DNA of 20,000 nucleotides, taken from an uncultured virus (IMG/VR IMGVR_UViG_3300017780_003486). Its lineage: Duplodnaviria; Heunggongvirae; Uroviricota; Caudoviricetes. The notes beneath the pieces are model-generated. The model was not told the origin of the DNA and made no database searches. It was given only the letters and a program-made list of their open reading frames with translations. A program made the position numbers and the translations under genes. The DNA is taken from IMG/VR virus record IMGVR_UViG_3300017780_003486, one strand, 5' to 3'. Every line of letters begins with the position of its first letter. The first letter of the stretch is position 1. Positions 1,844 through 18,759 of the stretch are shown here, piece by piece.

Positions 1844-3099
1844 AGCGCGTTCTCCTTCTTCCTAGCGGTTATCCGTACTTCTCTCGTCGCCCAGCCTAGC
1901 GACTCGTCGCCGCGAAGGTGGTTCTTGATCTTCGTCGAGAAACTACCGCACGTCTCGCACGTCCGGTGATCGAGGTCTTCGGAATAAGTCCACCGATGGA
2001 TGCACATCGGTCCTACGTCGGTGAGGTAAGTACGCCAGTGCGATTGGACCTCGTGACGTTTCTTCCTCCCGCCGCCAGCGATCTTCCTCGCGACGTAGCG
2101 AACGCGGCTCTTGACCCTTGGGAGGTTCAGCGTCACGACGTGCTTTTCGAAGCCCGGCCTCCCGGTCCCGTTTGCCGAACGTATCCGGGAACCGGTCGCG
2201 GTTCGCGGTTCGCTTACGACGATAGGGACCTCCGAGAGCATACAGAGGACGGTCGAAATCCAGCGCGTCATCCCGGCGTTCTCCGCAACGTCGGTCGCGA
2301 ACTGATCGAGGATACTATCGCGACTAACGCCCCGAACTCCGGGAGCCTCGTTTACCTTGACCATCAGTCTTCGGAACGCATCGCTATAGGCGATAGCCGC
2401 GTGCCTCGTAAGATAAGACGGGACGGAGTACGAGAGGCCGACGAAGTCTTTCGGACCGCTAAAGCCTCTCGGTCCGTTGCCGCGAACGTATCCCCAGACG
2501 CTTGCGGAGAGGTCTTCGGCCGATAGCCCTTCCTTTCCGGTAACGTCTACTTGCCCGCCGTGGGTCATACGCCACGACTCGATACCGCCGATCACCGACC
2601 GGTTGATATCGCCCTGTCCATCGGCGTCGAAGACAATCGCCATCGGGTGGACGACATATAGCGTCGTGTCGATCCCGCGAGAGTTCCTGATCTCGGCCTG
2701 TCCGATGAGCTGAATAGAGAAGGCGTTCGCGTTCTTCCTATCGCGGACTAGGAGGAGCGCGGCGATATCCCGAACGCGATCCGATACGGGACGATCCGGG
2801 GCCTCGCTCATCGCTATGGAAGCGGCGACCTTCACCCTCGGGTTATACTCCATCCATACGACGTCATACGGAAGGATCGTTCCTTGGACGCGAGCGAGAG
2901 CGTCTTCCGGAGTAACGACGGAGGCGCGAGCCGAGAGCTCAACGAAGTCGTCGTCGAGACGGAACTTCTTCGCCTTCATCATCAGGACCCGGTACTCGGC
3001 CATCGAGGCTTCGAGCGTCTTCTTCGTCGACCCGGTTACGTCGAGTGCTTTCGCGAAGCCGTATGTCGATGAGACGAAGCGTTCTGCTAGGTCTTCCAT
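1840..3099 (-). CDS. hypothetical phage protein with C-terminal HxVxxHWR...CxH...CxxC...HxRG motif
   Basis: 419-aa ORF; the basic C-terminal HEVQSHWR/HLRGD motif is familiar from uncharacterised phage proteins; possible Zn ribbon insert. Confidence 0.75.
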   Translation of the reverse strand: MEDLAERFVSSTYGFAKALDVTGSTKKTLEASMAEYRVLMMKAKKFRLDDDFVELSARASVVTPEDALARVQGTILPYDVVWMEYNPRVKVAASIAMSEAPDRPVSDRVRDIAALLLVRDRKNANAFSIQLIGQAEIRNSRGIDTTLYVVHPMAIVFDADGQGDINRSVIGGIESWRMTHGGQVDVTGKEGLSAEDLSASVWGYVRGNGPRGFSGPKDFVGLSYSVPSYLTRHAAIAYSDAFRRLMVKVNEAPGVRGVSRDSILDQFATDVAENAGMTRWISTVLCMLSEVPIVVSEPRTATGSRIRSANGTGRPGFEKHVVTLNLPRVKSRVRYVARKIAGGGRKKRHEVQSHWRTYLTDVGPMCIHRWTYSEDLDHRTCETCGSFSTKIKNHLRGDESLGWATREVRITARKKENAL

Positions 3100-4163: not shown

Positions 4164-4224
4164 ACGCTTTCCTTTCCCTGCGGGTGATCGGTACTCGACC
4201 ACCCGCGCTTCTAGAGTTCGACGA

Positions 4225-5358
4225 TCAGGCGGCCTTCTTAACGTCGAGCGCGGTCGCTTCGAGGACCTGCTTCCAGTCGGCCTTGCCCCAGTTCATCATC
4301 TGACCACCGGCTTCCTCGAACTCGACCGCGCGGTCGTAGTTCTTCGCCGTATGAGCCTGATGCGTAACGGCGTTCAGGAGACCCCAAGCGGAGAGGTCAC
4401 CGCCTTCGATCAGCGACTTGAGGATGCCGGACGACTCTTCGTCCGACACGCCGACCTTCTGCGAGAGAACGACGACGGCGGCCTGCGGGTCCTTCTCGAC
4501 CTTGATGCCGGTCAGCGTCTGAGCGTGTTCGATCTGCTTCCGGAAGCGGTTCTCGTCGACCGCCGACTTGACCATGTCGCGGACCTTCGAGAGAACGAGC
4601 TTGTCGTCGAGCTTCCGGGTCGAGTCCGACCAGAGGTCTTCGTTGTCGTCGATCTTCCGGCCGACGTGGTTCGCGCGGAAGCGATCCATACCCTTCATCC
4701 CGTTGAGGCAGATCAGGCGCCAGATCACCGACGAGACCGAGACCGAGCCGCAGCCGACTTCGGAGTTCGTGATCAGGACACCGGCCTGAACCACGTCGCC
4801 CTTCTTGATCTCGCCCTCGATAGCGGGCGTGACGGCTTGGATGTACATCCGCTTGTCCGTGACCTCGCACGAAACGATCTTGACGTTCGGAAGCTCCGCG
4901 AGGATCGGAAGCGCAACGTCGGCGATCTCGTGGTTATCGATCCGGCTATAGCGGTTCGAGAGGAAGCCGCGAGCGTTCCCGTGGAGAGTGCGGAGCATCC
5001 GCTTGTCGGCCTCGCGTTCGAGGTCGTGCTTGAGCCACGAGTTGACGTTCATCGCCAACAGGTCGGGTTGCTTCTCCAACATCCGGTCGTAATACTTCGC
5101 CGGGATGCCGACGTAGGTTCCGAGCTGATTGTGGACGAGATCGAGCATCGGGAAGCGCTCGGCCTCCCGCGTTCCGTAGAGTTCGAGAACCGGCCGACGC
5201 TTCTTGATCGGCGTCTTCGCGTTACCGATGGGCGGCTCTTCATAGTCGTCGATCTGCATAGCGAGGCCCTTGCGGGTCTCGACGATGAAATCCTTCCGGG
5301 CATCGCGGTTGAACTCGATCTTGCGCGCGAAGTCGGCGAGGCTAATTCCCTTTTGCAT
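4225..5358 (-). CDS. DUF932/DUF945-like phage protein
   Basis: 377 aa; RGFLSNRYSRIDN, ITNSEVGCGSVSV, IWRLICLNGM and SAWGLLNAVT motifs are typical of the DUF932 family; AGGAG RBS. Confidence 0.8.
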   Translation of the reverse strand: MQKGISLADFARKIEFNRDARKDFIVETRKGLAMQIDDYEEPPIGNAKTPIKKRRPVLELYGTREAERFPMLDLVHNQLGTYVGIPAKYYDRMLEKQPDLLAMNVNSWLKHDLEREADKRMLRTLHGNARGFLSNRYSRIDNHEIADVALPILAELPNVKIVSCEVTDKRMYIQAVTPAIEGEIKKGDVVQAGVLITNSEVGCGSVSVSSVIWRLICLNGMKGMDRFRANHVGRKIDDNEDLWSDSTRKLDDKLVLSKVRDMVKSAVDENRFRKQIEHAQTLTGIKVEKDPQAAVVVLSQKVGVSDEESSGILKSLIEGGDLSAWGLLNAVTHQAHTAKNYDRAVEFEEAGGQMMNWGKADWKQVLEATALDVKKAA

Positions 5359-5380
5359 TTCGTTCTCCTGCTCTTCCTAT

Positions 5381-5442
5381 GGCCTATCTCGTCAGCGCCG
5401 GGTGGCCGTATCCGGCGGACGCTCCCGGAGGAGCGTTTCGAT
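5381..5442 (-). ncRNA. type II hammerhead ribozyme with loop I/3'-tail pseudoknot
   Basis: Sense RNA: AUC-GAAA-CGCUCC(UCCG)GGAGCG-UC^-CGCCGG(AUACGGCCAC)CCGGCG-CUGACGA-GAU-AGGCC. The core is intact (CUGANGA, GAAA, GUC triplet, G10.1-C11.1) and stems I-III all pair. Predicted cleavage is between 5418 and 5417. Confidence 0.9.
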
Positions 5443-5804
5443 TATCCTTCTTCGTCGCTCGGGAGCGGTTCGATCCGCTTCCAAGCCTGATCGGGACCGC
5501 GCGGCGATCCGATATCGGCGATGCGCTTCTCCGATAGAAGCTCGCGAATGAGGTCCCACTGGTCTCGATGGACCTCCATACCGTCACAAGCCGAAGCGAC
5601 TTGGACGATGATCCGTTTCTCGACTTCCTTCTTCGCCATATCGATATCGTTGAAGAAAGCCGGTTCCTTCTTCGAAGACCAAACGCGGTCTTCGTTCTCT
5701 TCGAGAGTGAACCGATACGGACCGACCGGAGTTCGAATGATCCTCCAGTATATCCGGCCGAAGATTTCGGATCGGTACGCCTTGACGACGCCAGCGTCGT
5801 TCAT
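5442..5804 (-). CDS. hypothetical protein
   Basis: 120 aa; GGAGG RBS; ATGA overlap; its TAA stop overlaps hammerhead stem II. Confidence 0.7.
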   Translation of the reverse strand: MNDAGVVKAYRSEIFGRIYWRIIRTPVGPYRFTLEENEDRVWSSKKEPAFFNDIDMAKKEVEKRIIVQVASACDGMEVHRDQWDLIRELLSEKRIADIGSPRGPDQAWKRIEPLPSDEEG

Positions 5805-6052
5805 TCAACCCTCCATCCGAACGTCTTCCATCCCGCTTGATGCGGAGTCCACTCGCGGACCGAAGACGCCGATACGAGCTTGACGTATCGGCGCTCTGGT
5901 CCGTATTCGTTCAGCTTCGACGCCTCTTCGATATTCGCCGGGTAAGCCCGGTCGTGAGAGAGCATATCGAAAGGGAACGTGCCGGCTCCGCTCACTACGA
6001 ACTCGTAGCGAACGGCCGGGACCGATAGCCGGTCAAGTCTTCGGAGGTTCAT
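5801..6052 (-). CDS. hypothetical phage protein (FxVxGxGxFPxDML motif)
   Basis: Start reassigned to ATG 6052 (ATGA overlap, GAGG RBS); 83 aa. Confidence 0.65.
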   Translation of the reverse strand: MNLRRLDRLSVPAVRYEFVVSGAGTFPFDMLSHDRAYPANIEEASKLNEYGPERRYVKLVSASSVREWTPHQAGWKTFGWRVE

Positions 6053-6312
6053 TGGTGCTGATACCTCTTCCGTTCGATGGACGGCCAATGCCGCTGGGCT
6101 TCTTCGTACTTCAGTTTCGAGCCCCGGAGCGATACGGCTACAGCAGCGCTGCCAACCTCCTCTCCATCTTCGTGGTCGACTATCCCTTGATAGGCAACCT
6201 GAGTATTCGTCCCATCGTCTTCGACGAGAACGGCTAGGAGTATCCGCCGCTTCGATCCCCTACCGAGATAGGGGACCGTGGGGCTATGGATACCGATGAT
6301 CTTGCGGCTCAC
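6049..6312 (-). CDS. hypothetical protein
   Basis: 87 aa; GTGA overlap with the upstream gene. Confidence 0.6.
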   Translation of the reverse strand: MSRKIIGIHSPTVPYLGRGSKRRILLAVLVEDDGTNTQVAYQGIVDHEDGEEVGSAAVAVSLRGSKLKYEEAQRHWPSIERKRYQHQ

Positions 6313-7397
6313 TTCTTGGCCGCCTTCTTCTTCGCCGCTACCTTCTTCGGAGCGGCCTTCGGAGCGGCCTTCGGAGCGGCCTTCTTTGGGGCCGCCTTCG
6401 GGCTCGCCTTCGGACTCGCCTTCTTCGCCGCTACCTTCTTCGGTGTCGCCTTCGGACTCGCCTTCTTCGGTTCGGCCTTCTTGATGCCGACGTTCGTCAC
6501 GATCTGCGGTCGCGGCGTCTTCTTCTCCGGCTCCGTCTTCGTCGCGGCCGGAGGAGTAGCAGCCGGGGCGGCCTTCTCCGGGAGACCGTCGCGGAGCGTA
6601 AAGGCGTGTCCCTTCAGGGTCGCCTTCCCATCCTTGATGAGAAGAGCGCGAAGCGCCTTACGTTCGGAGTCCGCGATGCCGAGAGCCTTCAGCGCGGTCT
6701 TGATCGTCCCGTAAGACTTCCCGCCGACCGTCACGGCGATGCTCCCGGAAATCCCACCGCCTTCCTTCTTCGCTCGCGGCGTCGTCTCGCCGTTCGCTCG
6801 CGCGGTCTTATTCGCCTCGCGCTCGGCTTTCCTCTTCGCCTTCGCGTCTCGTTTCGCTTGTCTCTCGCGCTCGCGAACAACCTGCGCCGCCTTCTTCCGG
6901 ACCTCGGCCGACTCGGGAGCCGCCTTCTTCCTGACCTCGATGGTCTCGGCGGTCACGATCGTGATGCTCGCGTCGGCGATCTGCCCGCTAAGGACGTAGA
7001 GTTCGGGCGTGTACCAGTCGTTGAACGCTTCGAGGTTATCGAATAACTGCGACCTCGTACCGGCTTCGGTAACGAGATTGACTTGGACTGGCTTCATCGG
7101 GTCCTGCGGCGTGATCTTATCGATAGGCATTTGAAACTCCTTCGCTTTCGGCATAATCCATTCGCGCTCGGTATTGAGCAGACGCTTCAGTTCTTCGGGG
7201 CTCTTCTTCGGTCTGTTCGACCGGAGGAACTTCGGTATGACCCAGACGCAATCCGGGTGATGGTAGGAACCGGCCGGGGCTCCGCACTCTTCGCAAGCCC
7301 TGAGGCCAACGGGAGTATCGGACAAAGTCGGTTCGGAAGCGACGACCGGAGCCGCCGTCTTCTTAGGTGTCGATGACGATTTCTTCTTGGCGACCAT
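6309..7397 (-). CDS. Lys/Ala/Pro-rich histone H1-like protein with N-terminal Zn-finger-like motif and small HTH-like domain
   Basis: C-terminal PKKAAPKA-type repeats; CEEC...HHPDC; VTVGGKSYGTIKTALKALGI segment. Start at 7397 (GGAG RBS) or 7412. Confidence 0.75.
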   Translation of the reverse strand: MVAKKKSSSTPKKTAAPVVASEPTLSDTPVGLRACEECGAPAGSYHHPDCVWVIPKFLRSNRPKKSPEELKRLLNTEREWIMPKAKEFQMPIDKITPQDPMKPVQVNLVTEAGTRSQLFDNLEAFNDWYTPELYVLSGQIADASITIVTAETIEVRKKAAPESAEVRKKAAQVVRERERQAKRDAKAKRKAEREANKTARANGETTPRAKKEGGGISGSIAVTVGGKSYGTIKTALKALGIADSERKALRALLIKDGKATLKGHAFTLRDGLPEKAAPAATPPAATKTEPEKKTPRPQIVTNVGIKKAEPKKASPKATPKKVAAKKASPKASPKAAPKKAAPKAAPKAAPKKVAAKKKAAKK

Positions 7398-7467
7398 CGG
7401 AGGACTCTCCATCGGTGAAGGAAGACGAGACGAGAAGGACGATGAGGACGGCGACGATCCACCGCAT
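7363..7467 (-). CDS. small membrane or signal-peptide-bearing protein (34 aa)
   Basis: Below the ORF-track cutoff; ATG directly follows the upstream TAG, with GAAAGGA RBS: MRWIVAVLIVLLVSSSFTDGESSDGRQEEIVIDT. Confidence 0.5.
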   Translation of the reverse strand: MRWIVAVLIVLLVSSSFTDGESSDGRQEEIVIDT

Positions 7468-7743
7468 CTATGCGATCCTTTCCGGGTACGCCTCGGGGAA
7501 CGAGGTCATCAGTTGGATGGCCGCCTCGTCGGCGATCTGGATGGCCATATTCCTCCGAAGACGAAGACGAATGTAGTCGTCGTCCGTCAGGAGGTTCTCA
7601 AGAGCCCGAGCCTCTTCCTCGCGCTTTTCTTCGCGAAGCTGGATCGCCTTCCGTCCGATCTCGAAGCGAACGCCGTGACTCGTGAGAGGACGGAGCCGCA
7701 TCTGCTTGCGGAGTTTTTCGACTTTCTTCTGTAGGGTATTCAT
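7468..7743 (-). CDS. hypothetical protein
   Basis: 91 aa; AGGAG RBS right after repeat A. Confidence 0.75.
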   Translation of the reverse strand: MNTLQKKVEKLRKQMRLRPLTSHGVRFEIGRKAIQLREEKREEEARALENLLTDDDYIRLRLRRNMAIQIADEAAIQLMTSFPEAYPERIA

Positions 7744-7756
7744 CTCTTCTCCTGCT

Positions 7757-7817
7757 CCAGCGAAAGCGCTGGCGGATCGAGCGGAGCCGAAGCGCCGCTC
7801 TCACCGTTAGGGCTTTC
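7757..7817 (-). repeat. structured intergenic element, copy A (variant GAAAGC/GCTTTC)
   Basis: Sense: GAAAGCCCTAACGGTGAGAGCGGCGC-TTCG-GCTCCGCTCGATCCGCCAGCGCTTTCGCTGG. Confidence 0.95.
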
Positions 7818-8227
7818 TAGTTCTTCGTATAGACCGCGAGGCGATAATAGATCGGGCTGATGCCTTCTACCTCTTCGGTGGTTCGGAAATGGCGCCTGAC
7901 CTGCGCCTTCGCGAGTTCTTCGGGAGTGAGGTCTTTGACCGCTTCCTCGGCTTCACGAATGAATGCCGGCGGCGGATGTCCATCGCCCTCTTCCCAGTAC
8001 GTCGCCAAGAACTTCGCGACGAGCAACCGAAGATCGCTCGGCGGTTCGATAACGAGTAGCGACGTGTCGAACCGTTGCGATGCGTGATTGGTCCCGGCCT
8101 CTCGTATATAACACGCCGTCTGGTTCCGTCCGGGAACGATGCGAACGATTTCCCAGAGCGTTTCTCCGACGCCTTTCCCGCCAGCGAGCTTGACGCGGAC
8201 CTTATCGCCTATCTTGAATTTCGTCAT
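7817..8227 (-). CDS. hypothetical protein (N-terminal SH3/KOW-like FKIGDKVRV motif)
   Basis: 136 aa; lies between repeats B and A; AGGAG RBS. Confidence 0.75.
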   Translation of the reverse strand: MTKFKIGDKVRVKLAGGKGVGETLWEIVRIVPGRNQTACYIREAGTNHASQRFDTSLLVIEPPSDLRLLVAKFLATYWEEGDGHPPPAFIREAEEAVKDLTPEELAKAQVRRHFRTTEEVEGISPIYYRLAVYTKN

Positions 8228-8243
8228 CGAGTTCTCTCCTATA

Positions 8244-8304
8244 CCAGCGGAAGCGCTGGCGGATCAAGCCCCGGATCATCGAGGCTCTCACCGTTAGAGC
8301 TTCC
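8244..8304 (-). repeat. structured intergenic element, copy B
   Basis: Sense: GGAAGCTCTAACGGTGA-GAGCCTCG-ATGATC-CGGGGCTT-GATCCGCCAGCGCTTCCGCTGG; two G-U pairs in the variable stem. Confidence 0.95.
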
Positions 8305-8930
8305 TAGAGAGCTTCTTCGTTAGCGCGAGGCCGAGCAAGCTCGTGAGCCTTGAGCCCGATACACCGCTTGCAGTTGACCTCCTCCCACTTAGACCGGACG
8401 CGCGCCTTCGACTGCCGGAACGAAAACCGGTTCCCGCTCGATACTGCCGTGCAGAGCGGACGACCGAAACCGCTACGGCTGAAGTGGATCGGCGCTGGCC
8501 GCTTCGGCTTCGTCTTCTTCTCTATCGTATCCTCCTCCGAAGGCCCGAGCGGCGCTCCCTTCGGTCGGAAGCGCATACCGGAGATATGGCCGCGACTGAA
8601 GTTATGACCGTCCTTCGTCCGAAGGAGCCAATCTCTGACGGCACTTTCGAGGTCGCCGGAAATCCGGATGCCGTAGTCGGGGCCGCGCACGCCGTTGGTC
8701 CCCCACTCAAGGCCGTGCGAGGTCTCGTAAGCGAAGGAGCGAACCTGCCGAACGATGTCGGCGGCGCAGAGATAGAACGTCCGCGTGTACCAGCGGCGAC
8801 CGTACTTTCCGAAGTCGCCATCCGGGTGGTCCTTCTCCTGCTTCGCGCGATCCTTAAGGTTGTCGGCCCAGAGGAAGTCCCACGCGGCGGGGATCGCCTT
8901 GGCGATGTCGAACGAAAAACGCTTTCCCAT
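8304..8930 (-). CDS. hypothetical protein with C-terminal His/Cys motif (H...C...CxxC)
   Basis: 208 aa; AGGAGG RBS; its TAG overlaps repeat B. Confidence 0.75.
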   Translation of the reverse strand: MGKRFSFDIAKAIPAAWDFLWADNLKDRAKQEKDHPDGDFGKYGRRWYTRTFYLCAADIVRQVRSFAYETSHGLEWGTNGVRGPDYGIRISGDLESAVRDWLLRTKDGHNFSRGHISGMRFRPKGAPLGPSEEDTIEKKTKPKRPAPIHFSRSGFGRPLCTAVSSGNRFSFRQSKARVRSKWEEVNCKRCIGLKAHELARPRANEEAL

Positions 8931-8942
8931 AATCGTGTCCTC

Positions 8943-9191
8943 CTATCGAACGGCGGTGGTCGAAAGCGAATAGATCGGCCGCCAGACGACGTGTACTTCG
9001 TCCGTCCCGCTCGGGCCGTAGAGGAAGCAAGGGAGTGACGTGTTCTCCGTCTCCCGTTCGATACGACGAACCGCGTCGATGTGTAAGCGAAGGTAGCGCG
9101 CGATCACCGGCAGCGGAGCGCGCATCACAAACGAGAGGTCGTTCTTATCGCTCTTCGGGGCGACCGACAGATCGTACAACTGAATGGCCAT
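8943..9191 (-). CDS. hypothetical protein
   Basis: 82 aa; AAAGGA RBS after repeat C. Confidence 0.7.
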   Translation of the reverse strand: MAIQLYDLSVAPKSDKNDLSFVMRAPLPVIARYLRLHIDAVRRIERETENTSLPCFLYGPSGTDEVHVVWRPIYSLSTTAVR

Positions 9192-9210
9192 AGGTTACGT
9201 CCTTTCTATT

Positions 9211-9271
9211 CCAGCGGAAGCGCTGGCGGATCGAGCCCCGGATCGTCGGGGCTCTCACCGTTAGAGTTTCC
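9211..9271 (-). repeat. structured intergenic element, copy C
   Basis: Sense: GGAAACTCTAACGGTGA-GAGCCCCG-ACGATC-CGGGGCTC-GATCCGCCAGCGCTTCCGCTGG. Confidence 0.95.
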
Positions 9272-10243
9272 TCACTTCTTCTCGACTTGGAGGTCGAGGC
9301 CGATCTTGTCGCCGGCAACCCGTCCGACGCTGAACGCTTCTCCCTTCTTCGCGTTCTTCGCGTTCTCGCGAGCGTTCTTCTTGTAGTATTCGCGAGCGGC
9401 CTTCTTCGCGTCCTCTTCGCTATAGCCGTGGCTCCGATAGAACGCTTCGACCCAATCGACGCCTTCGCTTTCGAGGCGTTCGGCGACGAGGCGACGCTCG
9501 CGCTCAGACGCCTCGCGGCCTTTCCTCCGGGCCGCCGTCGTTCCGGCCGGGAGGCCATAGCGAAGATCGGCGTTGAGGTCTTCTTCCGAGCCGTAGACAT
9601 CCGAGAGGAGGACAAGGCCCGTGCCGGGAGTAGCGCTACCCGTCGCGGCGGTCGCCTTCCGACGAGCGGCCTCCGCTTCGGCTTCTTCGCGCTCCCGCTT
9701 CGCGCGCTGGGCGAAAAGACGTTCAGAGAGACGCGAGACCGCGCCGTCAAAGAAGAGCGCGTTGTCGGAGGTCCCGTGGTCGTATCCGTGACGCGCGGCC
9801 TCGCGCCCAATCGACTTGACGAGATAGTCGTAAAGGGCAATCGTTCCTTGGATGTTGATCGTCCGCCCGATCAGAACGTGGAAGGTCGACTTCTTGAGCC
9901 CGAGATGTCGGCGGCTCTTGAGCGTCCGCTCGACGAGCTTCTCCTGCACGAAGTGGATGCAGAAGTTCCCCTTCGCGAGAGCGGCCATAAGCTCGCGCTG
10001 CCACTTGTACATCGCGCGCCGATCCGTCTCGGCCTTCTCGCGATCCGTCATCGCGTCGGCGTTACGCTCCGAAGCCGTGACCTGCGCGAGCGACAAGCCG
10101 TAGTCCTGAAGGAGTTCCTGTACCTTCGCCGCAGCGCTCTCGGCTTCGGCGGCCGACGAGTTCTTATTCTTATCGGCGAGGGCGAGGAGCTTCTTGATAC
10201 GCTCGATCACTTTCTCGGTCGGCATCTGCTGTTGGTTCGTCAT
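9272..10243 (-). CDS. DUF2786 domain protein
   Basis: N-terminal KVIERIKKLLALA...AEAESAAAKVQELLQDYGLS is the DUF2786 pattern; C-terminal AFSVGRVAGDKIGL; AAGGAG RBS. Confidence 0.85.
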   Translation of the reverse strand: MTNQQQMPTEKVIERIKKLLALADKNKNSSAAEAESAAAKVQELLQDYGLSLAQVTASERNADAMTDREKAETDRRAMYKWQRELMAALAKGNFCIHFVQEKLVERTLKSRRHLGLKKSTFHVLIGRTINIQGTIALYDYLVKSIGREAARHGYDHGTSDNALFFDGAVSRLSERLFAQRAKREREEAEAEAARRKATAATGSATPGTGLVLLSDVYGSEEDLNADLRYGLPAGTTAARRKGREASERERRLVAERLESEGVDWVEAFYRSHGYSEEDAKKAAREYYKKNARENAKNAKKGEAFSVGRVAGDKIGLDLQVEKK

Positions 10244-10258
10244 CTATCTCTCCTTATC

Positions 10259-10319
10259 CCAGCGGAAGCGCTGGCGGATCAAGCCTCGTACTATCGAGGC
10301 TCTCACCGTTAGAGCTTCC
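10259..10319 (-). repeat. structured intergenic element, copy D
   Basis: Variable stem GAGCCTCG-ATAGTA-CGAGGCTT with consensus flanks. Confidence 0.95.
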
Positions 10320-10666
10320 TACGGCGAAGCGTCCCATCCGGCAGCGCGTTCGGCCGCGCGGATACCGGAAAGGTCGTATGACCGCTCGCGCCTCCGGTCG
10401 GCAAGGCCGACGGCACGCTCGACTTCTTCGAGAGGCCATCCGACGTATCGAGCGAACCGCTCGCGCGCCTTCGCCTCGTTCATCGTCTTCTTGACCGGCC
10501 GTCCTTCGACCTTGCACCAGACGACGAGGCCGAGATGGATCGTCGTCTTCCTCTTTCCTTTCCTCTCTACCGTGTACTCGACGAAGGAGTACGGGTCGTG
10601 GCGCGGTCCCTCGTCGCCGTTCTTGACCGTGATCGAACCGCTCGTCGTCTTATAGCGTTCATACAT
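10319..10666 (-). CDS. hypothetical basic protein
   Basis: 115 aa; lies exactly between repeats E and D; AGGAG RBS. Confidence 0.75.
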   Translation of the reverse strand: MYERYKTTSGSITVKNGDEGPRHDPYSFVEYTVERKGKRKTTIHLGLVVWCKVEGRPVKKTMNEAKARERFARYVGWPLEEVERAVGLADRRRERSYDLSGIRAAERAAGWDASP

Positions 10667-10680
10667 TCGTCTCTCCTATC

Positions 10681-10742
10681 CCAGCGGAAGCGCTGGCGGA
10701 TCGAGCCCCGGATCGCGTCGGGGCTCTCACCGTTAGAGCTTC
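10681..10742 (-). repeat. structured intergenic element, copy E
   Basis: Variable stem GAGCCCCG-ACGCGATC-CGGGGCTC; the TAA inside the element is the methyltransferase stop codon. Confidence 0.95.
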
Positions 10743-11245
10743 ACGAGTTGCGTAGCGAGACAGATGTTTCTCTCGACGATCCCGCAGATCAATTGGAAAC
10801 CGATCTTAAGGCGCCAGTCGATGCGTCCGCCTTCCCGATCATATGTAGTGTCGGTGAAGAGGTTCTTGAACGTCTCTTCCGTCCACGACGATTTGTGATC
10901 GAGGTTCTGATGCTGTAGTTGCGAATTATAGTACGGCACCACGATAAGCGCGGAACCGCCCGGCTTCAGAACTCGATTTATTTCCTCGACGACTTTCGTA
11001 GCGGTCGAGCCGTCGAGATGTTCGAAGAAGTGATAAGCGACCACTCCCGCCACTTCTTCGTCTCCGAACGGGATCGTATCTCGTCGAGCATCCCAATCGG
11101 GAAGATCGAGGTTGGTCGTTTCGTAGGGAAGGGCCTTTCGACCGGAGCCGAGGTTGATTATCGGCCCGGATGGAAAAGAAAGGATGGCCGGAACGTCCCG
11201 GCTCATCCCCCAGCGAAACAGGTCTTGAAAGCGAACTTCCTTCAT
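10733..11245 (-). CDS. class I SAM-dependent methyltransferase (Methyltransf_11-like)
   Basis: INLGSG (motif I), NLD, IPFGDEEV, HFFEHL and EINRVLKPGG..IVVP motifs; AAGGAGG RBS. Confidence 0.85.
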   Translation of the reverse strand: MKEVRFQDLFRWGMSRDVPAILSFPSGPIINLGSGRKALPYETTNLDLPDWDARRDTIPFGDEEVAGVVAYHFFEHLDGSTATKVVEEINRVLKPGGSALIVVPYYNSQLQHQNLDHKSSWTEETFKNLFTDTTYDREGGRIDWRLKIGFQLICGIVERNICLATQLVKL

Positions 11246-11248
11246 TGA

Positions 11249-11590
11249 CTAAGCCTCCTTAACGATCTGAAAGGTAACGGAACGCTTGCCGTTCTCGAAC
11301 ACGGCCCGACCGCTCGCCTTCAACGACTTGCGAAACCGGGCACACTGGGCGGCGGTCCCGAGCTTCAGCGACTTGAAGGCGCTCCAGGCGCTATCGTACT
11401 TCTTGCCGCCGACCTTAACGGCGTGGCGGGTGGCCCGCGCCTTCATAACCTTGTCCGACGCGGCCTTCTTCGCCGTCTTCTTCGCGACCTTCTTGACCGC
11501 GACCTTCTTGACCGCGACCTTCTTCGTGTTCTCGGCCGAAGCCTTGACGACGTTGGCGACGACGGCGACGTTGTTCTTCTTGGCGTTCAT
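11249..11590 (-). CDS. histone H1-like Lys/Ala-rich DNA-binding protein
   Basis: KKVAVKKVAVKKVAKKTAKK repeats followed by a VKVGGKKYDSAWSAFKSLKL domain; AGGAG RBS. Confidence 0.75.
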   Translation of the reverse strand: MNAKKNNVAVVANVVKASAENTKKVAVKKVAVKKVAKKTAKKAASDKVMKARATRHAVKVGGKKYDSAWSAFKSLKLGTAAQCARFRKSLKASGRAVFENGKRSVTFQIVKEA

Positions 11591-11640
11591 AGTAGTCTCC
11601 TATTTCGAAGTACCCGCTCGTCCTCTCGGGATCGGAGCGT

Positions 11641-11697
11641 CCAGCGGAAGCGCTGGCGGATCGAGCGGCCGTAGCCGCTCTCACCGTTAGAGCTTCC
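11641..11697 (-). repeat. structured intergenic element, copy F
   Basis: Variable stem GAGCGGC-TACG-GCCGCTC (cUACGg tetraloop). Confidence 0.95.
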
Positions 11698-11792
11698 TAG
11701 TAGTTCCGCTCGTCGTTCTCCGGGTCTCCGATAAGCCAGAGGACGAGAGCTGCCGCGATCCACGGCGAGAGTAGTTGAACAGCGAGCCACAT
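11697..11792 (-). CDS. small membrane protein (31 aa)
   Basis: Below the ORF-track cutoff; AGGAGG RBS; MWLAVQLLSPWIAAALVLWLIGDPENDERNY; its TAG overlaps repeat F exactly as for the other genes. Confidence 0.65.
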   Translation of the reverse strand: MWLAVQLLSPWIAAALVLWLIGDPENDERNY

Positions 11793-11804
11793 CAGACGGT
11801 CCTC

Positions 11805-12005
11805 CTAGTACCGGGTGCCGTAGTAGAGCCACGGATTGTTGGGGTGGCGCTTGTTCATCACGCGATGAAACTCACGTACGATGCCGTCACTGACATTCAA
11901 CTCTCTGACGATCTCGCTCTTGCTGAAGCGAGCCAGAAAGACGTTGGTGAAGACGTAGATGACCTGAAGGTAGATGGCCTGAGACAGTTCGTTCATAATG
12001 TTCAT
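11805..12005 (-). CDS. hypothetical protein
   Basis: 66 aa (or 63 aa from the second Met, which is better spaced from AGGAGG). Confidence 0.65.
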   Translation of the reverse strand: MNIMNELSQAIYLQVIYVFTNVFLARFSKSEIVRELNVSDGIVREFHRVMNKRHPNNPWLYYGTRY

Positions 12006-12009
12006 CCTC

Positions 12010-12147
12010 CTAAGCGATCAGATATCCGTACCGATTGTACCAGCCTCGTCTCGTCTTGATCGGTCGGCTCCGGGTTCCTTTTCGAGACGCGGCGAATTCA
12101 CATTCGAGCCGTATCGCGTCACATAGCGCTTTCAGATCGAACGTCAT
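12010..12147 (-). CDS. small basic hypothetical protein (45 aa)
   Basis: Below the ORF-track cutoff; ATGA overlap and GAGGAG RBS; MTFDLKALCDAIRLECEFAASRKGTRSRPIKTRRGWYNRYGYLIA fills the gap exactly. Confidence 0.6.
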   Translation of the reverse strand: MTFDLKALCDAIRLECEFAASRKGTRSRPIKTRRGWYNRYGYLIA

Positions 12148-12371
12148 CGCGCGCTCTCCTCTTCGTTAAGGCGACGAACCACCGCGTCGATATCGGCCTG
12201 TCGGTCGCCGCTCTTAACGATCTTGAGGTTCTTCCGGCGAACGCCGAGCCCTTCGTCGTAGAGGTCGTCTGCTTCGTCCGCGACGGTCGCGCGGTCGTAG
12301 TCGCCGAAGTGGATCGCCCACGGGCTCTTATCGTCGTCTCGCGTCACGAGCGTGTAATACGTCTTCGCCAT
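12144..12371 (-). CDS. hypothetical phage protein
   Basis: Start reassigned to ATG 12371 (MAKTYYTLVTRDD...WAIHFGDYDR), after AAGGAG and repeat G; 75 aa. Confidence 0.8.
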   Translation of the reverse strand: MAKTYYTLVTRDDDKSPWAIHFGDYDRATVADEADDLYDEGLGVRRKNLKIVKSGDRQADIDAVVRRLNEEESAR

Positions 12372-12389
12372 CGTCGTCTCCTTCGTTAC

Positions 12390-12450
12390 CCAGCGGAAGC
12401 GCTGGCGGATCGAGCGGCACCGAAGCGCCGCTCTCACCGTTAGAGCTTCC
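12390..12450 (-). repeat. structured intergenic element, copy G
   Basis: Variable stem GAGCGGCGC-TTCG-GTGCCGCTC (cUUCGg tetraloop, one G-U pair). Confidence 0.95.
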
Positions 12451-12740
12451 TAGTAGTTGACTTCGTAGTAGCGACGACCATCGCGACCGAGAGAACGAAG
12501 GACCTTCGCTTGGTGGAGTGCTTTGACCGCTTCGGTGAGGTCGACCGTCTCGACGTTGTTAAGTGCCGCTCCGATCCGGTTGATCTGATCGATGTCGATC
12601 ATCGCGTAATACATAACCCGGAAGACCCGAGCCGCGAGTGCGGTCGACGGCGACCAGTTCGCCTTTACCTCTAAGAAGCCGTCGAGCAGTTCGAACGTCT
12701 TCGCTTCTTCTTCGGACCGCTTCGAATAATCCTTAGCCAT
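12450..12740 (-). CDS. hypothetical protein (possible wHTH-like C-terminus)
   Basis: 96 aa; lies exactly between repeats H and G; AAGGAG RBS. Confidence 0.75.
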   Translation of the reverse strand: MAKDYSKRSEEEAKTFELLDGFLEVKANWSPSTALAARVFRVMYYAMIDIDQINRIGAALNNVETVDLTEAVKALHQAKVLRSLGRDGRRYYEVNY

Positions 12741-12760
12741 CGTCGTCTCTCCTTCGTTAT

Positions 12761-12817
12761 CCAGCGGAAGCGCTGGCGGATCGAGCGGCCGCAGCCGCTC
12801 TCACCGTTAGAGCTTCC
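12761..12817 (-). repeat. structured intergenic element, copy H
   Basis: Variable stem GAGCGGC-TGCG-GCCGCTC (cUGCGg tetraloop). Confidence 0.95.
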
Positions 12818-13071
12818 TAGTTCTCGTCGTTAAGCTCGCTATCGGCGAACTCTTCCCAGAGGAAGCGCTCGGCTTCCTCGATGGTCCCGAATGTCCGGTC
12901 GTCTCCGGCGAGGCTCACTTCGTAATGAGCGCTGGTCGACCCTTCGTTCGGCACGCCGATATAGAAGGCGTCGAGGTAGAGGTATCCGGCGAACTCCGCG
13001 AAGCCGCTCGTGTACGGCGCGAGGTTCGAGACGTACTTACGCGATGCCTTGAACTCTTCGAACGTCGTCAT
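12817..13071 (-). CDS. hypothetical acidic protein
   Basis: 84 aa; lies exactly between repeats I and H; AAGGAG RBS. Confidence 0.75.
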   Translation of the reverse strand: MTTFEEFKASRKYVSNLAPYTSGFAEFAGYLYLDAFYIGVPNEGSTSAHYEVSLAGDDRTFGTIEEAERFLWEEFADSELNDEN

Positions 13072-13090
13072 GGTCTTTCTCCTTCGTTAC

Positions 13091-13151
13091 CCAGCGGAAG
13101 CGCTGGCGGAGACCGACACGACGGATCGTGTCGGCTACCGTTAGAGCTTCC
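13091..13151 (-). repeat. structured intergenic element, copy I (fully replaced inner stem)
   Basis: Sense: GGAAGCTCTAACGG-TAG-CCGACACGA-TCCG-TCGTGTCGG-TCT-CCGCCAGCGCTTCCGCTGG. Confidence 0.95.
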
Positions 13152-13157
13152 TGATCG

Positions 13158-13352
13158 TTAGCGCTTCTTGCCGCCGATGTTCGGCTGCGGGTTGAACTCC
13201 TTCGGCTTACGTTCGAACGTCGCGCCCTGATCGTAGTTCTCGACGAGCTGTTCGGCTTCCTTATGAGCCTTCGCCGAGTAGAGCGACCACATCGGCGTGT
13301 GCAGAACCTTCTGAGCATTACGATACGACTTGGATGAAATCCGATAAGCCAT
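13158..13352 (-). CDS. hypothetical protein (first gene of the repeat-punctuated array)
   Basis: 64 aa; AAGGAG RBS after repeat J. Confidence 0.75.
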   Translation of the reverse strand: MAYRISSKSYRNAQKVLHTPMWSLYSAKAHKEAEQLVENYDQGATFERKPKEFNPQPNIGGKKR

Positions 13353-13373
13353 GTTCTTCTCCTTCTTCGTTAC

Positions 13374-13435
13374 CCAGCGGAAGCGCTGGCGGATCGAGCG
13401 TCGTTAGTATCGACGCTCTCACCGTTAGAGCTTCC
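13374..13435 (-). repeat. structured intergenic element, copy J (5'-most, no upstream gene)
   Basis: Variable stem GAGCGTCG-ATACTAA-CGACGCTC with consensus flanks. Confidence 0.95.
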
Positions 13436-13439
13436 TCTT

Positions 13440-13480
13440 TTAAGTTAGTAGCATAACCTCAGTCGCGACGGCTTCATAGA
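13440..13480 (-). promoter_or_regulatory. possible sigma70-type promoter for the accessory array
   Basis: -10-like TATGCT at 13455-13450 in a local AT-rich patch just upstream of copy J; the -35 match is poor. Confidence 0.3.
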
Positions 13481-14139
13481 GCGCATCGGTTCGTTATGCA
13501 TCGATCTCTCTTCGCTAAACTCCGCGTCTCGCACTCGGACGGGGAACGGCCTCCGCGCTTAAGAGCCTCTATCGTTCCGGCGACTAGAGCGACGGGGGAA
13601 CGATTTCAGGACTTATCTATTCAGCGACTTGGGGCGGGATAGGAAGAGGCTAGACCCGTCCCGATCCGAACGCCGAGGCCGCTTCTCCTTTCGGCCTACA
13701 GAGGAGGACGAGGAAAGGAGAGCAGAGCCATCGGCCCAGAAGGGGCGATAGGGTCTAGGGTTCTTTAGCCGGGGCCGCCTAGAGTGCTAATCGAACCTCG
13801 CCGTTTTGGCTGCAAGCGGTTCGAAGAGCCTAGCAGGGCGCTTCTAATTTTTCCCCGGTTCCCTCCAGCGGCCTCCACGCGACCCTAAGTTACGGAGGGG
13901 AACCAGCGAGGCCCGGAGGCCCCGCCCCTCCGACGTTCCCGCCGGAGGTAGGCTCATTATAGAAAGAAAGAGGAAGGAAGGAAGGCCCGAAAACCGATTT
14001 TTTAGGCCCCATATATAGTAGGGGTCCGGGCCGCCCCGGTCCGGGAGCCCTCCCGGAGCTCAGGAAAGGCCCAAAATCGACAAGGCTAAAAGCCTTACGC
14101 CATCGGCATTAAAACGAAACCACGACCAAAACAGGCGTT

Positions 14140-14691
14140 CTATCGACTCCCGGCCGGGGATCGGGGCCTAGTAGGGGCCGGGCCGGGGCTCCCGGCCGGG
14201 GCTCCCGGAAGGCGTCTAATCGATCCTCCGGCGACCGGGGCGATAACCTCGCGCCATTTCGGGAGCGGAGCGAATAGAAGGACCTCGCGGATAGCCTTCC
14301 AGTTCCATCGCGAAGGTCCTCCAGTCTCGACGAGTATCGCCTTCGCATCGATGCCTCTCTCCAGTACCTCACGCGCCTGAACTCCGAAGAAGAGATAAAG
14401 CTCATCGACCTCTTCACCAAGCCGTGGGCCTTCGCGCGTCTCTCGTCTCGCGGCGATGAATGATCGTCCGCCAGCGATGGCGCGACGAGTATGCCAGCCG
14501 ACCTGCTTGGGCCTCATCCGAATGGTCTTGCCGTAGACGCGCTTGTTCTCGATCCAGAACTCGACGCCCTCGTCGCACCCGTTGGTATCGGGTACGCCTT
14601 GGACCGTCATACCGGTTTCGATAGGGAGAAGATGCATACCGCGAAGATGCGCGTTGTAGATCGACCGTAGGCCGCCGTCCGTCCCGCTCAT
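14140..14691 (-). CDS. PD-(D/E)xK nuclease, VRR-NUC / Holliday junction resolvase-like
   Basis: Start reassigned to ATG 14691 (ATGA overlap). GVPD...GVEFWIENK...MRPKQVGWH...AGG is the VRR-NUC-type pattern; low-complexity C-terminal tail. Confidence 0.75.
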   Translation of the reverse strand: MSGTDGGLRSIYNAHLRGMHLLPIETGMTVQGVPDTNGCDEGVEFWIENKRVYGKTIRMRPKQVGWHTRRAIAGGRSFIAARRETREGPRLGEEVDELYLFFGVQAREVLERGIDAKAILVETGGPSRWNWKAIREVLLFAPLPKWREVIAPVAGGSIRRLPGAPAGSPGPAPTRPRSPAGSR

Positions 14692-18369: not shown

Positions 18370-18675
18370 CTAGGCTTCGGCGGCTGCCGGCGCTGCGGGC
18401 TTCACCTTCTTGGTCTTCAGGATGCCGGCGTCGATGCTCTTCGTGATCAGGCCGCGCTTCGCGCTCGTGTTCTTGATCACGTCGGCGACCGTGCAGCCGG
18501 GGTTCTTGCCGACATACTTGGCCATGTCCGCGAACCGCGCGTGCGCCGCGCTTCCTTCCCGGCGCGGGTTCTCGCCGACCGACACGATCTGCATGTCCGC
18601 GCCGTACTTCATCTTTGCCGGAGCCTTCTTCTTCGCCGCGACCTTCTTCTTCGCGGCCTTCTTCTTCGCTGCCAT
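18370..18675 (-). CDS. small basic histone-like protein
   Basis: Start reassigned to ATG 18675 (MAAKKKAAKKKVAAKKKAPAK), followed by an NPRREGSAAHARF domain; 101 aa. Confidence 0.7.
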   Translation of the reverse strand: MAAKKKAAKKKVAAKKKAPAKMKYGADMQIVSVGENPRREGSAAHARFADMAKYVGKNPGCTVADVIKNTSAKRGLITKSIDAGILKTKKVKPAAPAAAEA

Positions 18676-18759
18676 GTTCCTGTCCTTCCTTACTTTCTTT
18701 CTCTCGCCCATTATTGGGGAGCCCACTTAGCTAACCTACGAACTACACGGATGAAAGAC

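What the first reader, a model, noticed from the sequence alone, without database searches (positions are those of the whole stretch)
7757..7817. Compensatory change supports a pseudoknot between the element's 5' end and its 3' hairpin loop
Seen: the consensus 5' GGAAGC is complementary to the 6-nt loop GCUUCC of the CCAGC/GCUGG hairpin. Copy A changes both sides together (GAAAGC / GCUUUC). Counter-evidence: copy C has an uncompensated GGAAAC (A-C mismatch) and copy E keeps only 5 bp. Established: a fully paired 6-nt hairpin loop is feasible (pistol ribozyme pseudoknot, kissing loops). Inference: the GGAAGC strand overlaps the stop codon, so a terminating ribosome would open the pseudoknot. 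That could couple the element's activity to translation of the upstream gene.
Basis: partly seen in the sequence, partly recalled or inferred. Interest (0 to 1): 0.7.

Follow-up and report, generated by a model that had tools for sequence, protein, structure and literature searches.

The report
Repeated ribozyme-like RNA between phage genes

Summary
The 5' strand/loop pairing is real: 6 of 6 pairs change on both sides in 39 aligned copies. It does not prove a pseudoknot, because the same pairs close a plain long hairpin, the predicted minimum-energy fold. The CCAGC/GCUGG arm is also selected (full partner in 43 of 48 rows, compensatory in distant phages), but it is missing in some phages, and where the spacer is 4 nt the 5' strand pairs into it. 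The two helices therefore look like alternative states. The long-hairpin state holds an internal loop matching the twister-sister catalytic loop in swapped order (five positions kept in 47-48 of 48 copies, cleavage-site base free), and in related phages hammerheads or twister-like RNAs precede the same genes. Best reading (0.55): an undescribed twister-sister-like self-cleaving RNA cutting about 10 nt past the upstream stop, with the 3' hairpin forming afterwards. Three twister-sister features fail (G59, G5-U64, SL4), so it is not filed as a member. Cleavage is untested. Stop-codon overlap is real but shared with the neighbouring hammerheads.

The parts
7757..7817 (-). Copy A of the repeated RNA element (61 nt)
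   Evidence: model R1 75 bits (the copy is in the training set)
7812..7817 (-). 5' strand of closing helix P1 (GAAAGC); 7817 is the last base of the upstream UAG
7807..7811 (-). 5' strand of the conserved internal loop, N-Y-U-N-A; inferred cleavage between 7808 and 7807 (twister-sister C62/A63 equivalents)
   Evidence: conservation; mapping; the site is inference, untested
7804..7806 (-). P2 5' strand (CGG), pairs with 7773-7775; covaries as CGG/CCG, CGA/UCG, UGA/UCA, UGG/CCA
7776..7803 (-). UGA/GAU 3x3 internal loop plus variable terminal hairpin P3 (7779-7800)
   Evidence: 7 of 8 P3 pairs with two-sided changes; GA/GA in 42 of 48
7773..7775 (-). P2 3' strand (CCG); its last G corresponds to twister-sister G5
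7768..7772 (-). CCAGC: 3' strand of the conserved internal loop in the long-hairpin state, and 5' arm of the 3' hairpin in the other state
7762..7767 (-).
7757..7761 (-). 3' arm GCUGG; optional in the family, spacer 4-14 nt
7749..7753 (-). Shine-Dalgarno-like AGGAG of the downstream gene (start codon 7743-7741)
   Evidence: sequence
7817..8227 (-). Upstream ORF, 136 aa, no Pfam or PHROG family
7468..7743 (-). Downstream ORF, 91 aa, no Pfam or PHROG family
8244..8304 (-). Copy B
9211..9271 (-). Copy C (GGAAAC; GGAAGC in X2 and G001); the ortholog of its downstream gene in L090 is preceded by a type II hammerhead
10259..10319 (-). Copy D, before the DUF2786/DUF7168 gene; the relative in L002 is preceded by a twister-P5-like RNA
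10681..10743 (-). Copy E (upstream stop UAA lies inside the linker)
11641..11697 (-). Copy F (after a 31-codon SD-led ORF)
12390..12450 (-). Copy G (GGAAGU, a wobble, in X2 and G001)
12761..12817 (-). Copy H
13091..13151 (-). Copy I (divergent 3x3 loop and P3)
13374..13435 (-). Copy J, first in the array; no qualifying upstream stop
5378..5443 (-). Type II hammerhead ribozyme in the same kind of slot (stop codon, RNA, SD), before the DUF932 gene
   Evidence: Rfam RF02276 46.7 bits, gathering 37; context

Best explanation
The element is a structured RNA on the mRNA strand of a phage early-gene array and most likely a self-cleaving ribozyme with a twister-sister-like active loop in swapped (LINE-1-type) strand order. 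SHOWN: helices P1, P2, P3 and the 3' arm helix by covariation; the stop-RNA-SD layout; exchange with hammerhead and twister-like RNAs in front of orthologous genes; position-by-position likeness of the internal loop to twister-sister L1. INFERRED: the long nested hairpin folds first as the RNA is made and is the active form; it cuts between the variable base and the near-invariant A of the N-Y-U-N-A strand, about 10 nt after the start of the element; the 3' product starts with a 5'-OH and a hairpin; the 3' arm then pairs with CCAGC, displacing the short 5' fragment and tucking the pyrimidine-rich P1 strand into a loop so that it does not pair with the SD. A ribosome sitting at the upstream stop would hold the 5' strand and favour the same inactive two-hairpin state, which could delay cleavage. 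The pseudoknot is at most an intermediate between the two states.
For: P1 6 of 6, P2 2 of 3, P3 7 of 8 pairs with two-sided changes; 0 of 500 shuffles reach the covariation score (relatedness not corrected). RNAalifold picks the nested fold with C-G/U-G and U-A pairs in the loop. In 48 distinct copies from 16 contig groups: U (TS U61) 48, A (A63) 47, C (C6) 48, A (A8) 48, G (G9) 48, G (G5) 42; the base at the C62 position is free (A19 G17 C7 U5) and the A7 position varies (C45 G2 A1), as twister-sister mutants tolerate (PMC5660989 passages; Rfam consensus; TS-like loop numbering PMC11620745). C6, A8, G9 equivalents came back unasked in 11 of 12 loci of a scan that left them free. Slot exchange: window gene 8943-9191 (element) vs 60%-identical L090 gene (type II hammerhead core); DUF2786 gene: element in window and L038, twister-P5-like in L002; DUF932 gene: hammerhead in window, twister-like in L002. 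Clustered hammerheads flanking phage genes cleave in vitro (PMC3088659 passages). Modelled 3' product forms the arm hairpin in 38 of 42 copies; SD unpaired 0.60 with the arm vs 0.385 with the arm barred, higher in 23 and lower in 4 of 40. UNCG-type loops and G-U pairs in P3 lie on the mRNA strand.
Against: No cleavage data. The highly conserved twister-sister G59 is G in only 9 of 48; the non-canonical G5-U64 pair is replaced by a covarying Watson-Crick pair (C-G 41, U-A 5), and the matching A12C change leaves almost no activity in the LINE-1 ribozyme while G5A nearly stops twister sister; there is no multiway junction and no SL4 loop. U and A of the 5' strand were fixed in most search patterns, so their invariance is inflated. 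Structured RNAs near ribozyme-associated genes have failed to cleave before (PMC6765202 passage). Only one L002 twister-like RNA has an Rfam hit, below threshold (26.4 vs 37.6 bits), and the L090 hammerhead in the swapped slot was found by motif, not by Rfam. Folding results are nearest-neighbour models without pseudoknots. The plus strand folds as stably.
Confidence: 0.55

Rival explanations
1. Non-catalytic two-state mRNA element: a long irregular hairpin bound or cut by a protein (RNase III-type processing site, recalled from T7 and lambda early mRNAs, or a phage protein), or a translational-coupling switch in which a terminating ribosome opens P1 and the 3' hairpin frees the next SD.
For: Two near-equal folds: P1 dominates in 36 of 47 copies when free, the CCAGC strand pairs downstream in 43 of 47 when the first 11 nt are blocked, median gap 2.8 kcal/mol. 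Stop codon within -13..+10 in 43 of 48 rows, overlapping or adjacent in 36. SD-led 4-codon leader in L199. In arm-less L091/L093 the SD follows or overlaps P1. Precedent: ribosome-triggered refolding in ColIb-P9 rep mRNA (PMC4705826 passages).
Against: Modelled SD accessibility changes little on blocking the 5' strand (median +0.10; more than 0.15 in 12 of 41). Does not explain the twister-sister-like loop or exchange with ribozymes. Hammerheads show the same stop overlap.
Confidence: 0.2
2. One reading: a stable pseudoknot (5' strand paired with the loop of an intact CCAGC/GCUGG hairpin) is the working fold, possibly of a new ribozyme or regulator, and a terminating ribosome opens it.
For: Both helices are selected: arm partner complete in 43 of 48 rows against 122 of 1606 background sites (elements included); compensatory C-G to U-A in L086, L169, L287 and C-G to G-C in L169, L176. 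Spacers of 10-14 nt (L287, L199, L169) leave room for a classical H-type knot (general knowledge). Type II hammerheads use a 3'-tail pseudoknot and pistol pairs its P1 loop in a pseudoknot.
Against: Arm absent in L091, L093, L094; 4-nt spacers in L051, L087, L088 with the 5' strand pairing into the arm; L086 hairpin extends into the loop. A full arm helix removes the U-A and C-G pairs of the conserved loop. In pistol the hairpin precedes its partner; here it follows.
Confidence: 0.15
3. DNA-level cassette site (attC-like single-strand hairpin, or repeats that shuffle small genes by homologous recombination), with the RNA-like features incidental.
For: One copy per gene in a run, the layout noted for attC and DUF1874 (PMC5737381 section 23). 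Plus strand folds into one long hairpin with G-T pairs. X2 differs from the window at 19 sites in the 957-nt cassette 8284-9240 but at 9 in 3270 nt beside it, and G001 copy B carries the P3 of copy G, which suggests exchange at the repeats.
Against: The AAC core recalled for attC is not conserved (CUAA, CUUA, CUCA, CUGA, UUGA). No integrase among 30 window proteins scanned. Single copies in several near-complete phage records. UNCG loops and G-U pairs favour the mRNA strand. Recombination can follow from any repeat.
Confidence: 0.06
4. put-like RNA that binds RNA polymerase and suppresses pausing or termination in the early operon.
For: About 60-70 nt with two adjacent hairpins in one state; in L091/L093 it lies early in a repressor-flanked leftward operon.
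Against: put acts over at least 10 kb from one copy per operon and lies in leaders (PMC9378689 passages); here 10 copies sit at stop codons. No terminator-like site on the minus strand between genes of the array beyond chance (15 found vs 10.4 expected, both strands).
Confidence: 0.04

Closest known systems
Twister-sister ribozyme (Rfam RF02681; structure PMC5660989)
   Same: Internal loop between two helices with C-G and U-A pairs, an A opposite C, a free base 5' of the conserved A and a variable base at the extruded position: 5-nt strand G-C-N-A-G (Rfam GCAAG) and 6-nt strand N-C-U-N-A-C (Rfam GCUCAU). Found beside phage genes and other ribozymes.
   Different: Strand order swapped; no three- or four-way junction, no SL4; G59 equivalent not conserved and faces an extra base; Watson-Crick pair in place of G5-U64; extra UGA/GAU loop and optional 3' arm. 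No RF02681 hit on the element.
TS-like (lantern) LINE-1 and OR4K15 ribozymes (PMC11620745)
   Same: Two stems and one asymmetric loop with a dispensable terminal hairpin; cleavage strand 5' of its partner, by the LINE-1 numbering; the 5-nt strand equals the OR4K15 one at the positions named in the text; L051, L091, L093 copies also match five of six bases of the cleavage strand.
   Different: Human retroelement origin and slow; A12 is C/U here, a change that nearly abolishes LINE-1 activity; C10 is needed there but free here.
Clustered type II hammerheads flanking phage genes (PMC3088659; RF02276)
   Same: Same slots, same stop-RNA-SD layout, optional 3' tail pairing back; one is in this window.
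   Different: No CUGANGA, GAAA or cleavage-triplet blocks in the element (PMC10085705 definitions).
   Same: A short hairpin whose loop can pair with a distant strand.
   Different: Pistol has three stems, a pseudoknot from the P1 loop to the downstream P2-P3 junction and cleavage at GU between P3 and P2; here the partner lies upstream and no stem follows the hairpin.
DUF1874 motif (PMC5737381)
   Same: Structured motif in consecutive intergenic regions, function unknown.
   Different: Multistem; no Rfam hit on the element; its consensus figure was in a supplement that could not be read.
ColIb-P9 repZ / IncB repBA pseudoknot coupling (PMC4705826)
   Same: Upstream stop codon placed in a structure that refolds near the next SD.
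   Different: There the ribosome induces the knot, the SD is weak and buried, and an antisense RNA competes; here most SDs lie outside both folds.

Membership tests
Twister sister (RF02681) | L1 pairs G9-C60 and A8-U61 | tested here: met
   C-G 38, U-G 9, G-G 1 of 48; U and A 48 of 48 (features)
Twister sister (RF02681) | Essential A63 opposite C6; tolerant base at 62; non-conserved extruded base at 7 | tested here: met
   A 47 of 48, C 48 of 48; position 62 A19 G17 C7 U5; position 7 C45 G2 A1. A63 was fixed in most search patterns.
Twister sister (RF02681) | Highly conserved extruded G59 forming a triple with A8-U61 | tested here: not met
   G in 9 of 48 (U17 C14 A8), and an extra base opposite it
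Twister sister (RF02681) | G5 in a trans non-canonical pair with U64 | tested here: not met
   G in 42 of 48, but paired Watson-Crick: C-G 41, U-A 5
Twister sister (RF02681) | Three- or four-way junction with conserved SL4 loop contacting L1 | tested here: not met
   No junction in the consensus fold; no RF02681 hit on the element
Twister sister (RF02681) | Mg2+-dependent self-cleavage 5' of the conserved A | not testable with these tools
   No RNA holder listed for the stretch
TS-like LINE-1/OR4K15 ribozymes | Two stems around a 6+5 loop, no junction, variable terminal hairpin | tested here: inconclusive
   Stems and hairpin present; loop is 6+6 with the extra base, and A12 is replaced by a paired C/U
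Hammerhead (all permutations) | CUGANGA, GAAA and cleavage-triplet blocks | tested here: not met
   Third base of the CUGA-like word takes all four letters and GAAA is absent
Pistol | P1 loop pseudoknot to a downstream P2-P3 junction, GU cleavage junction, three stems | tested here: not met
   Partner strand is upstream, sequence after the arm is not conserved; no Rfam hit
Pseudoknot (P1 and arm helix coexisting) | Both helices covary | tested here: met
   P1 6 of 6; arm 2 of 5 positions, in L086, L169, L176, L287
Pseudoknot (P1 and arm helix coexisting) | Both helices can form at once in all members | tested here: not met
   Arm missing in 3 rows; 5' strand pairs into the arm in 3 rows with 4-nt spacer
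attC sites | Conserved R-box core (recalled) and a nearby integrase | tested here: not met
   Core word varies; no integrase among 30 window proteins; rest of the genome not held
HK022 put | One leader copy per early operon; binds RNA polymerase | tested here: inconclusive
   Copy number and position differ; binding not testable

The most novel reading that the evidence does not exclude
A natural, fast, junction-free and circularly permuted relative of the twister-sister ribozyme, spread across unrelated phages, whose cleavage is gated by the ribosome terminating on the upstream gene and reset through a transient pseudoknot; this would be a new ribozyme subclass and a mechanism linking bacterial ribozyme cleavage to translation.
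Probability: 0.22. Interest if true: 0.9.

Novelty: new variant of a known kind. Interest (0 to 1): 0.72.

Why it matters
The family has no Rfam match and I found no description in 10 literature searches, though two large motif catalogues could not be checked in full. If it cleaves, it is the first natural bacterial-virus permutation of the twister-sister core that I could find, shows which parts of that debated active site are dispensable (G59, SL4), and gives a 60-nt modular cutter with a built-in product-release arm. Ten copies interchangeable with hammerheads and twisters also make the open question of why phages put ribozymes between early genes directly testable, including whether the ribosome at the stop codon gates them.

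Tried and rejected
No whole genome is held for the window. blastn of the element against named phages and plasmids gave no match over 80% of the query. First viral scan 0 hits; second 1 hit, chance-like. Genome-contig scan: 11 of 11 judged chance; 401 genomes of one bacterial class: 6 pattern hits, all chance-like. DUF932 relatives L084, L085 and DUF2786 relatives L002, L003 hold no copy. Dropped before counting: 74 of 80 loci; L095; the L183 group (20.9 bits, inside a coding gene), L245 (29.9 bits, no P3 or P1 by eye) and the other pattern-only hits; duplicates (L037/L038, L088/L089/L097, L086/L096, L391/L411); a decayed copy in L090. No RNA holder listed for the stretch, so expression and cleavage ends could not be seen. 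A word-level likeness to 16S rRNA helix 18 was checked on a fetched gene; model R1 does not hit it; rejected. Weak RF02681 hits in G001 and G004 lie in apparently coding sequence, not on the element. Hammerhead permutations, HDV-like (topology, recalled) and pistol readings rejected. No sigma-70 promoter passed the scan in 4200-14200. The 'twister-like' label was a crude word match that mislabelled some rows; only the L002 cases, inspected, are used. R-scape was not available; a fully paired nested structure count was not completed.

Full report
Setting. The window is phage DNA: a DnaE-like polymerase fragment, Pam3 gp33/gp34-like genes, DUF932, DUF2786/DUF7168 and many small unknown genes, all on the minus strand; the closest named phages are only about 35% alike in the polymerase. 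Runs holding the stretch are freshwater metagenomes (X1 may be the source). Between 7757 and 13435 ten genes are each preceded by a 57-63 nt element. A descriptor of it matches 10 times on the minus strand, 0 on the plus strand and 0.3 times on average in 30 Markov controls. Rfam has no match to it, but finds a type II hammerhead at 5378-5443 in the same kind of slot.

Checking the observation. The loop's end bases can pair in the window copies. The copy C mismatch is absent in a close strain (X2; G001), where copy G instead has a wobble. Above all, the six pairs also close a plain long hairpin that is the minimum-energy fold in 9 of 10 copies, so a compensatory change in them cannot decide between knot and hairpin.

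Homologs. The final set is 48 distinct copies in 16 contig groups, in loci from 37% to 67% G+C, including repressor-flanked operons of apparently temperate phages and a slot before a putative major capsid gene. The rows dropped are listed under Tried and rejected. In the 39-sequence alignment A1, P1 has two-sided changes at 6 of 6 pairs (92% of cells paired), P2 at 2 of 3, P3 at 7 of 8; 0 of 500 shuffles reach the score, without correction for relatedness. Two loose ends in run X1, probably of one foreign contig, add GGGGUU/AACCCC.

Knot or two states. The arm is real: a full partner of the CCAGC strand lies 4-14 nt downstream in 43 of 48 rows against 122 of 1606 background sites, with compensatory changes at two of five positions in L086, L169, L176 and L287 (that table had 48 rows, one a duplicate, and lacked L391). 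But L091, L093 and L094 have none while keeping P1; in three copies with a 4-nt spacer P1 takes the arm's first one or two bases; in L086 the hairpin grows into the loop. L151 is the opposite case: intact arm, weak P1, and the only copy without the conserved A. RNAalifold chooses the nested fold. In pseudoknot-free ensembles P1 dominates in 36 of 47 copies, and blocking the first 11 nt sends the CCAGC strand to a downstream partner in 43 of 47, at a median cost of 2.8 kcal/mol. I read this as two alternative folds; a knot remains possible as an intermediate or in long-spacer copies, and these tools cannot score it.

What the nested fold contains. Between P1 and P2 lies a loop N-Y-U-N-A / C-N-A-G-Y. 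The Rfam twister-sister consensus has GCAAG and GCUCAU around its cleavage site; the crystal structure paper gives G9-C60, A8-U61, C6-A63, an extruded non-conserved A7, a tolerant C62 and an essential A63 (PMC5660989, passages). The element matches these in swapped strand order, the order of the LINE-1 TS-like ribozyme by its numbering (PMC11620745, passages and sections 10-11): U61 48, A63 47, C6 48, A8 48, G9 48, G5 42 of 48, with all four bases at position 62. The C6, A8 and G9 equivalents were recovered in a scan that did not ask for them; U61 and A63 were fixed in most patterns. Against membership: G59 is G in 9 of 48, G5 is Watson-Crick paired (C-G 41, U-A 5), A12C almost abolishes LINE-1 activity, G5A nearly abolishes twister-sister activity, and there is no junction or SL4. 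So it may work like a twister sister but is not filed as one.

Context. Window gene 8943-9191 follows copy C, while its 60%-identical ortholog in L090 follows a type II hammerhead core; the DUF2786 gene follows the element in the window and L038 and a twister-P5-like RNA in L002; the DUF932 gene follows a hammerhead in the window and a twister-like RNA in L002. Hammerhead cores also occur in L025, L082 and L092 (only the L092 and window ones pass the Rfam threshold). Clustered hammerheads around phage genes are known and active, and type II forms use a 3' tail pseudoknot (PMC3088659, passages); polycistron processing is proposed but unproven, and other RNAs found beside such genes did not cleave (PMC6765202, passages).

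Translation link. A qualifying stop ends within -13..+10 of the first base in 43 of 48 rows and overlaps or touches the element in 36, against 535 of 4000 random positions; that control does not correct for tight gene packing, and the hammerheads in the window, L090 and L092 abut or overlap stops in the same way. L199 has a strong SD and a 4-codon ORF ending on the 5' strand right after a promoter-like stretch, which favours real coupling. Modelled SD opening on blocking the 5' strand is small (median +0.10), so coupling through the SD is weakly supported; gating of cleavage is untested inference.

Role of the arm. If the cut falls before the conserved A, the 3' product forms the arm hairpin in 38 of 42 copies with a full arm, and the SD is more open with the arm than with it barred (0.60 vs 0.385; higher in 23, lower in 4 of 40). 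This is a model result, but it explains an arm that covaries, shifts in spacing, competes with P1 and can be lost.

Literature seen. Passages or named sections only, no paper read whole: PMC5737381 (passages, section 23; supplement unreadable), PMC10085705 (parts 1, 3, 4 of 8), PMC9378689, PMC6765202, PMC4604425, PMC3088659, PMC11620745, PMC4705826, PMC5660989, PMC6154101. PMC10690425: listing and abstract start; 3 of 6 held supplement files searched without a hit, the alignment archives not, so the motif could be among its unnamed candidates. RNase III sites of T7 and lambda, the attC core, HDV topology and pseudoknot loop-length rules are recalled, not from calls. Earlier scan findings held nothing like this sequence.

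Verdict. Observation confirmed; pseudoknot partly supported (0.15 as the stable working fold); best reading an undescribed twister-sister-like self-cleaving RNA (0.55); non-catalytic switch or processing site 0.2. New variant of a known kind, interest 0.72.

Noticed in passing
window 5378-5443 (-): Type II hammerhead above Rfam threshold, overlapping the upstream stop, with a likely loop I / 3' tail pairing, before the DUF932 gene.
   Followed up: partly
L002 near 6532, 7910, 9021, 10611, 12544-12607 (+): Five twister-P5-like RNAs between genes, most just after a stop codon; several differ from the Rfam consensus and only one gives a sub-threshold hit.
   Followed up: partly
L051 just upstream of 3657 (+): Hammerhead-like RNA of type II layout with an unusual stem III and triplet before the DUF932 gene; missed by Rfam and by my motif.
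   Followed up: no
L037 just upstream of the DUF932 start, about 4620-4710 on the minus strand: Unassigned structured RNA: a long hairpin followed by a small hairpin whose 6-nt loop equals the twister-sister cleavage strand word; possibly another permutation.
   Followed up: no
window 8284-9240: Strain X2 differs at 19 sites in this two-gene cassette but at 9 in 3270 nt beside it, and G001 copy B carries the terminal hairpin of copy G: signs of cassette exchange and gene conversion between repeats.
   Followed up: partly
L199 about 2430-2500 (-): Promoter-like stretch, strong SD and a 4-codon ORF whose stop lies on the element's 5' strand.
   Followed up: partly
L169 and L176 about 2487-2552 (-): Divergent copies between a head-decoration-like gene and a putative major capsid gene in 128-135 kb phages, followed by further conserved non-coding sequence.
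   Followed up: no
L053 1038-1177 (+): Two copies in tandem with no long ORF between them; the first has lost the adjacent arm.
   Followed up: no
L090 about 4047 on the minus strand: Decayed copy with changes in the conserved loop, not scored by model R1.
   Followed up: partly
window 13436-14108: About 670 bases without an ORF of 50 codons or more upstream of the array, with G+C-rich inverted repeats and A+T-rich stretches; possible promoter region, origin or genome end (assemblies break near 13956).
   Followed up: no
window 6309-7412, 11249-11590, 18370-18726 (-): Three genes with Lys/Ala-rich repeats resembling histone H1-like tails.
   Followed up: no
window 11590-11640 (-): Copy F has a longer spacer to its start codon holding an extra short hairpin and a decayed SD-like word.
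   Followed up: no
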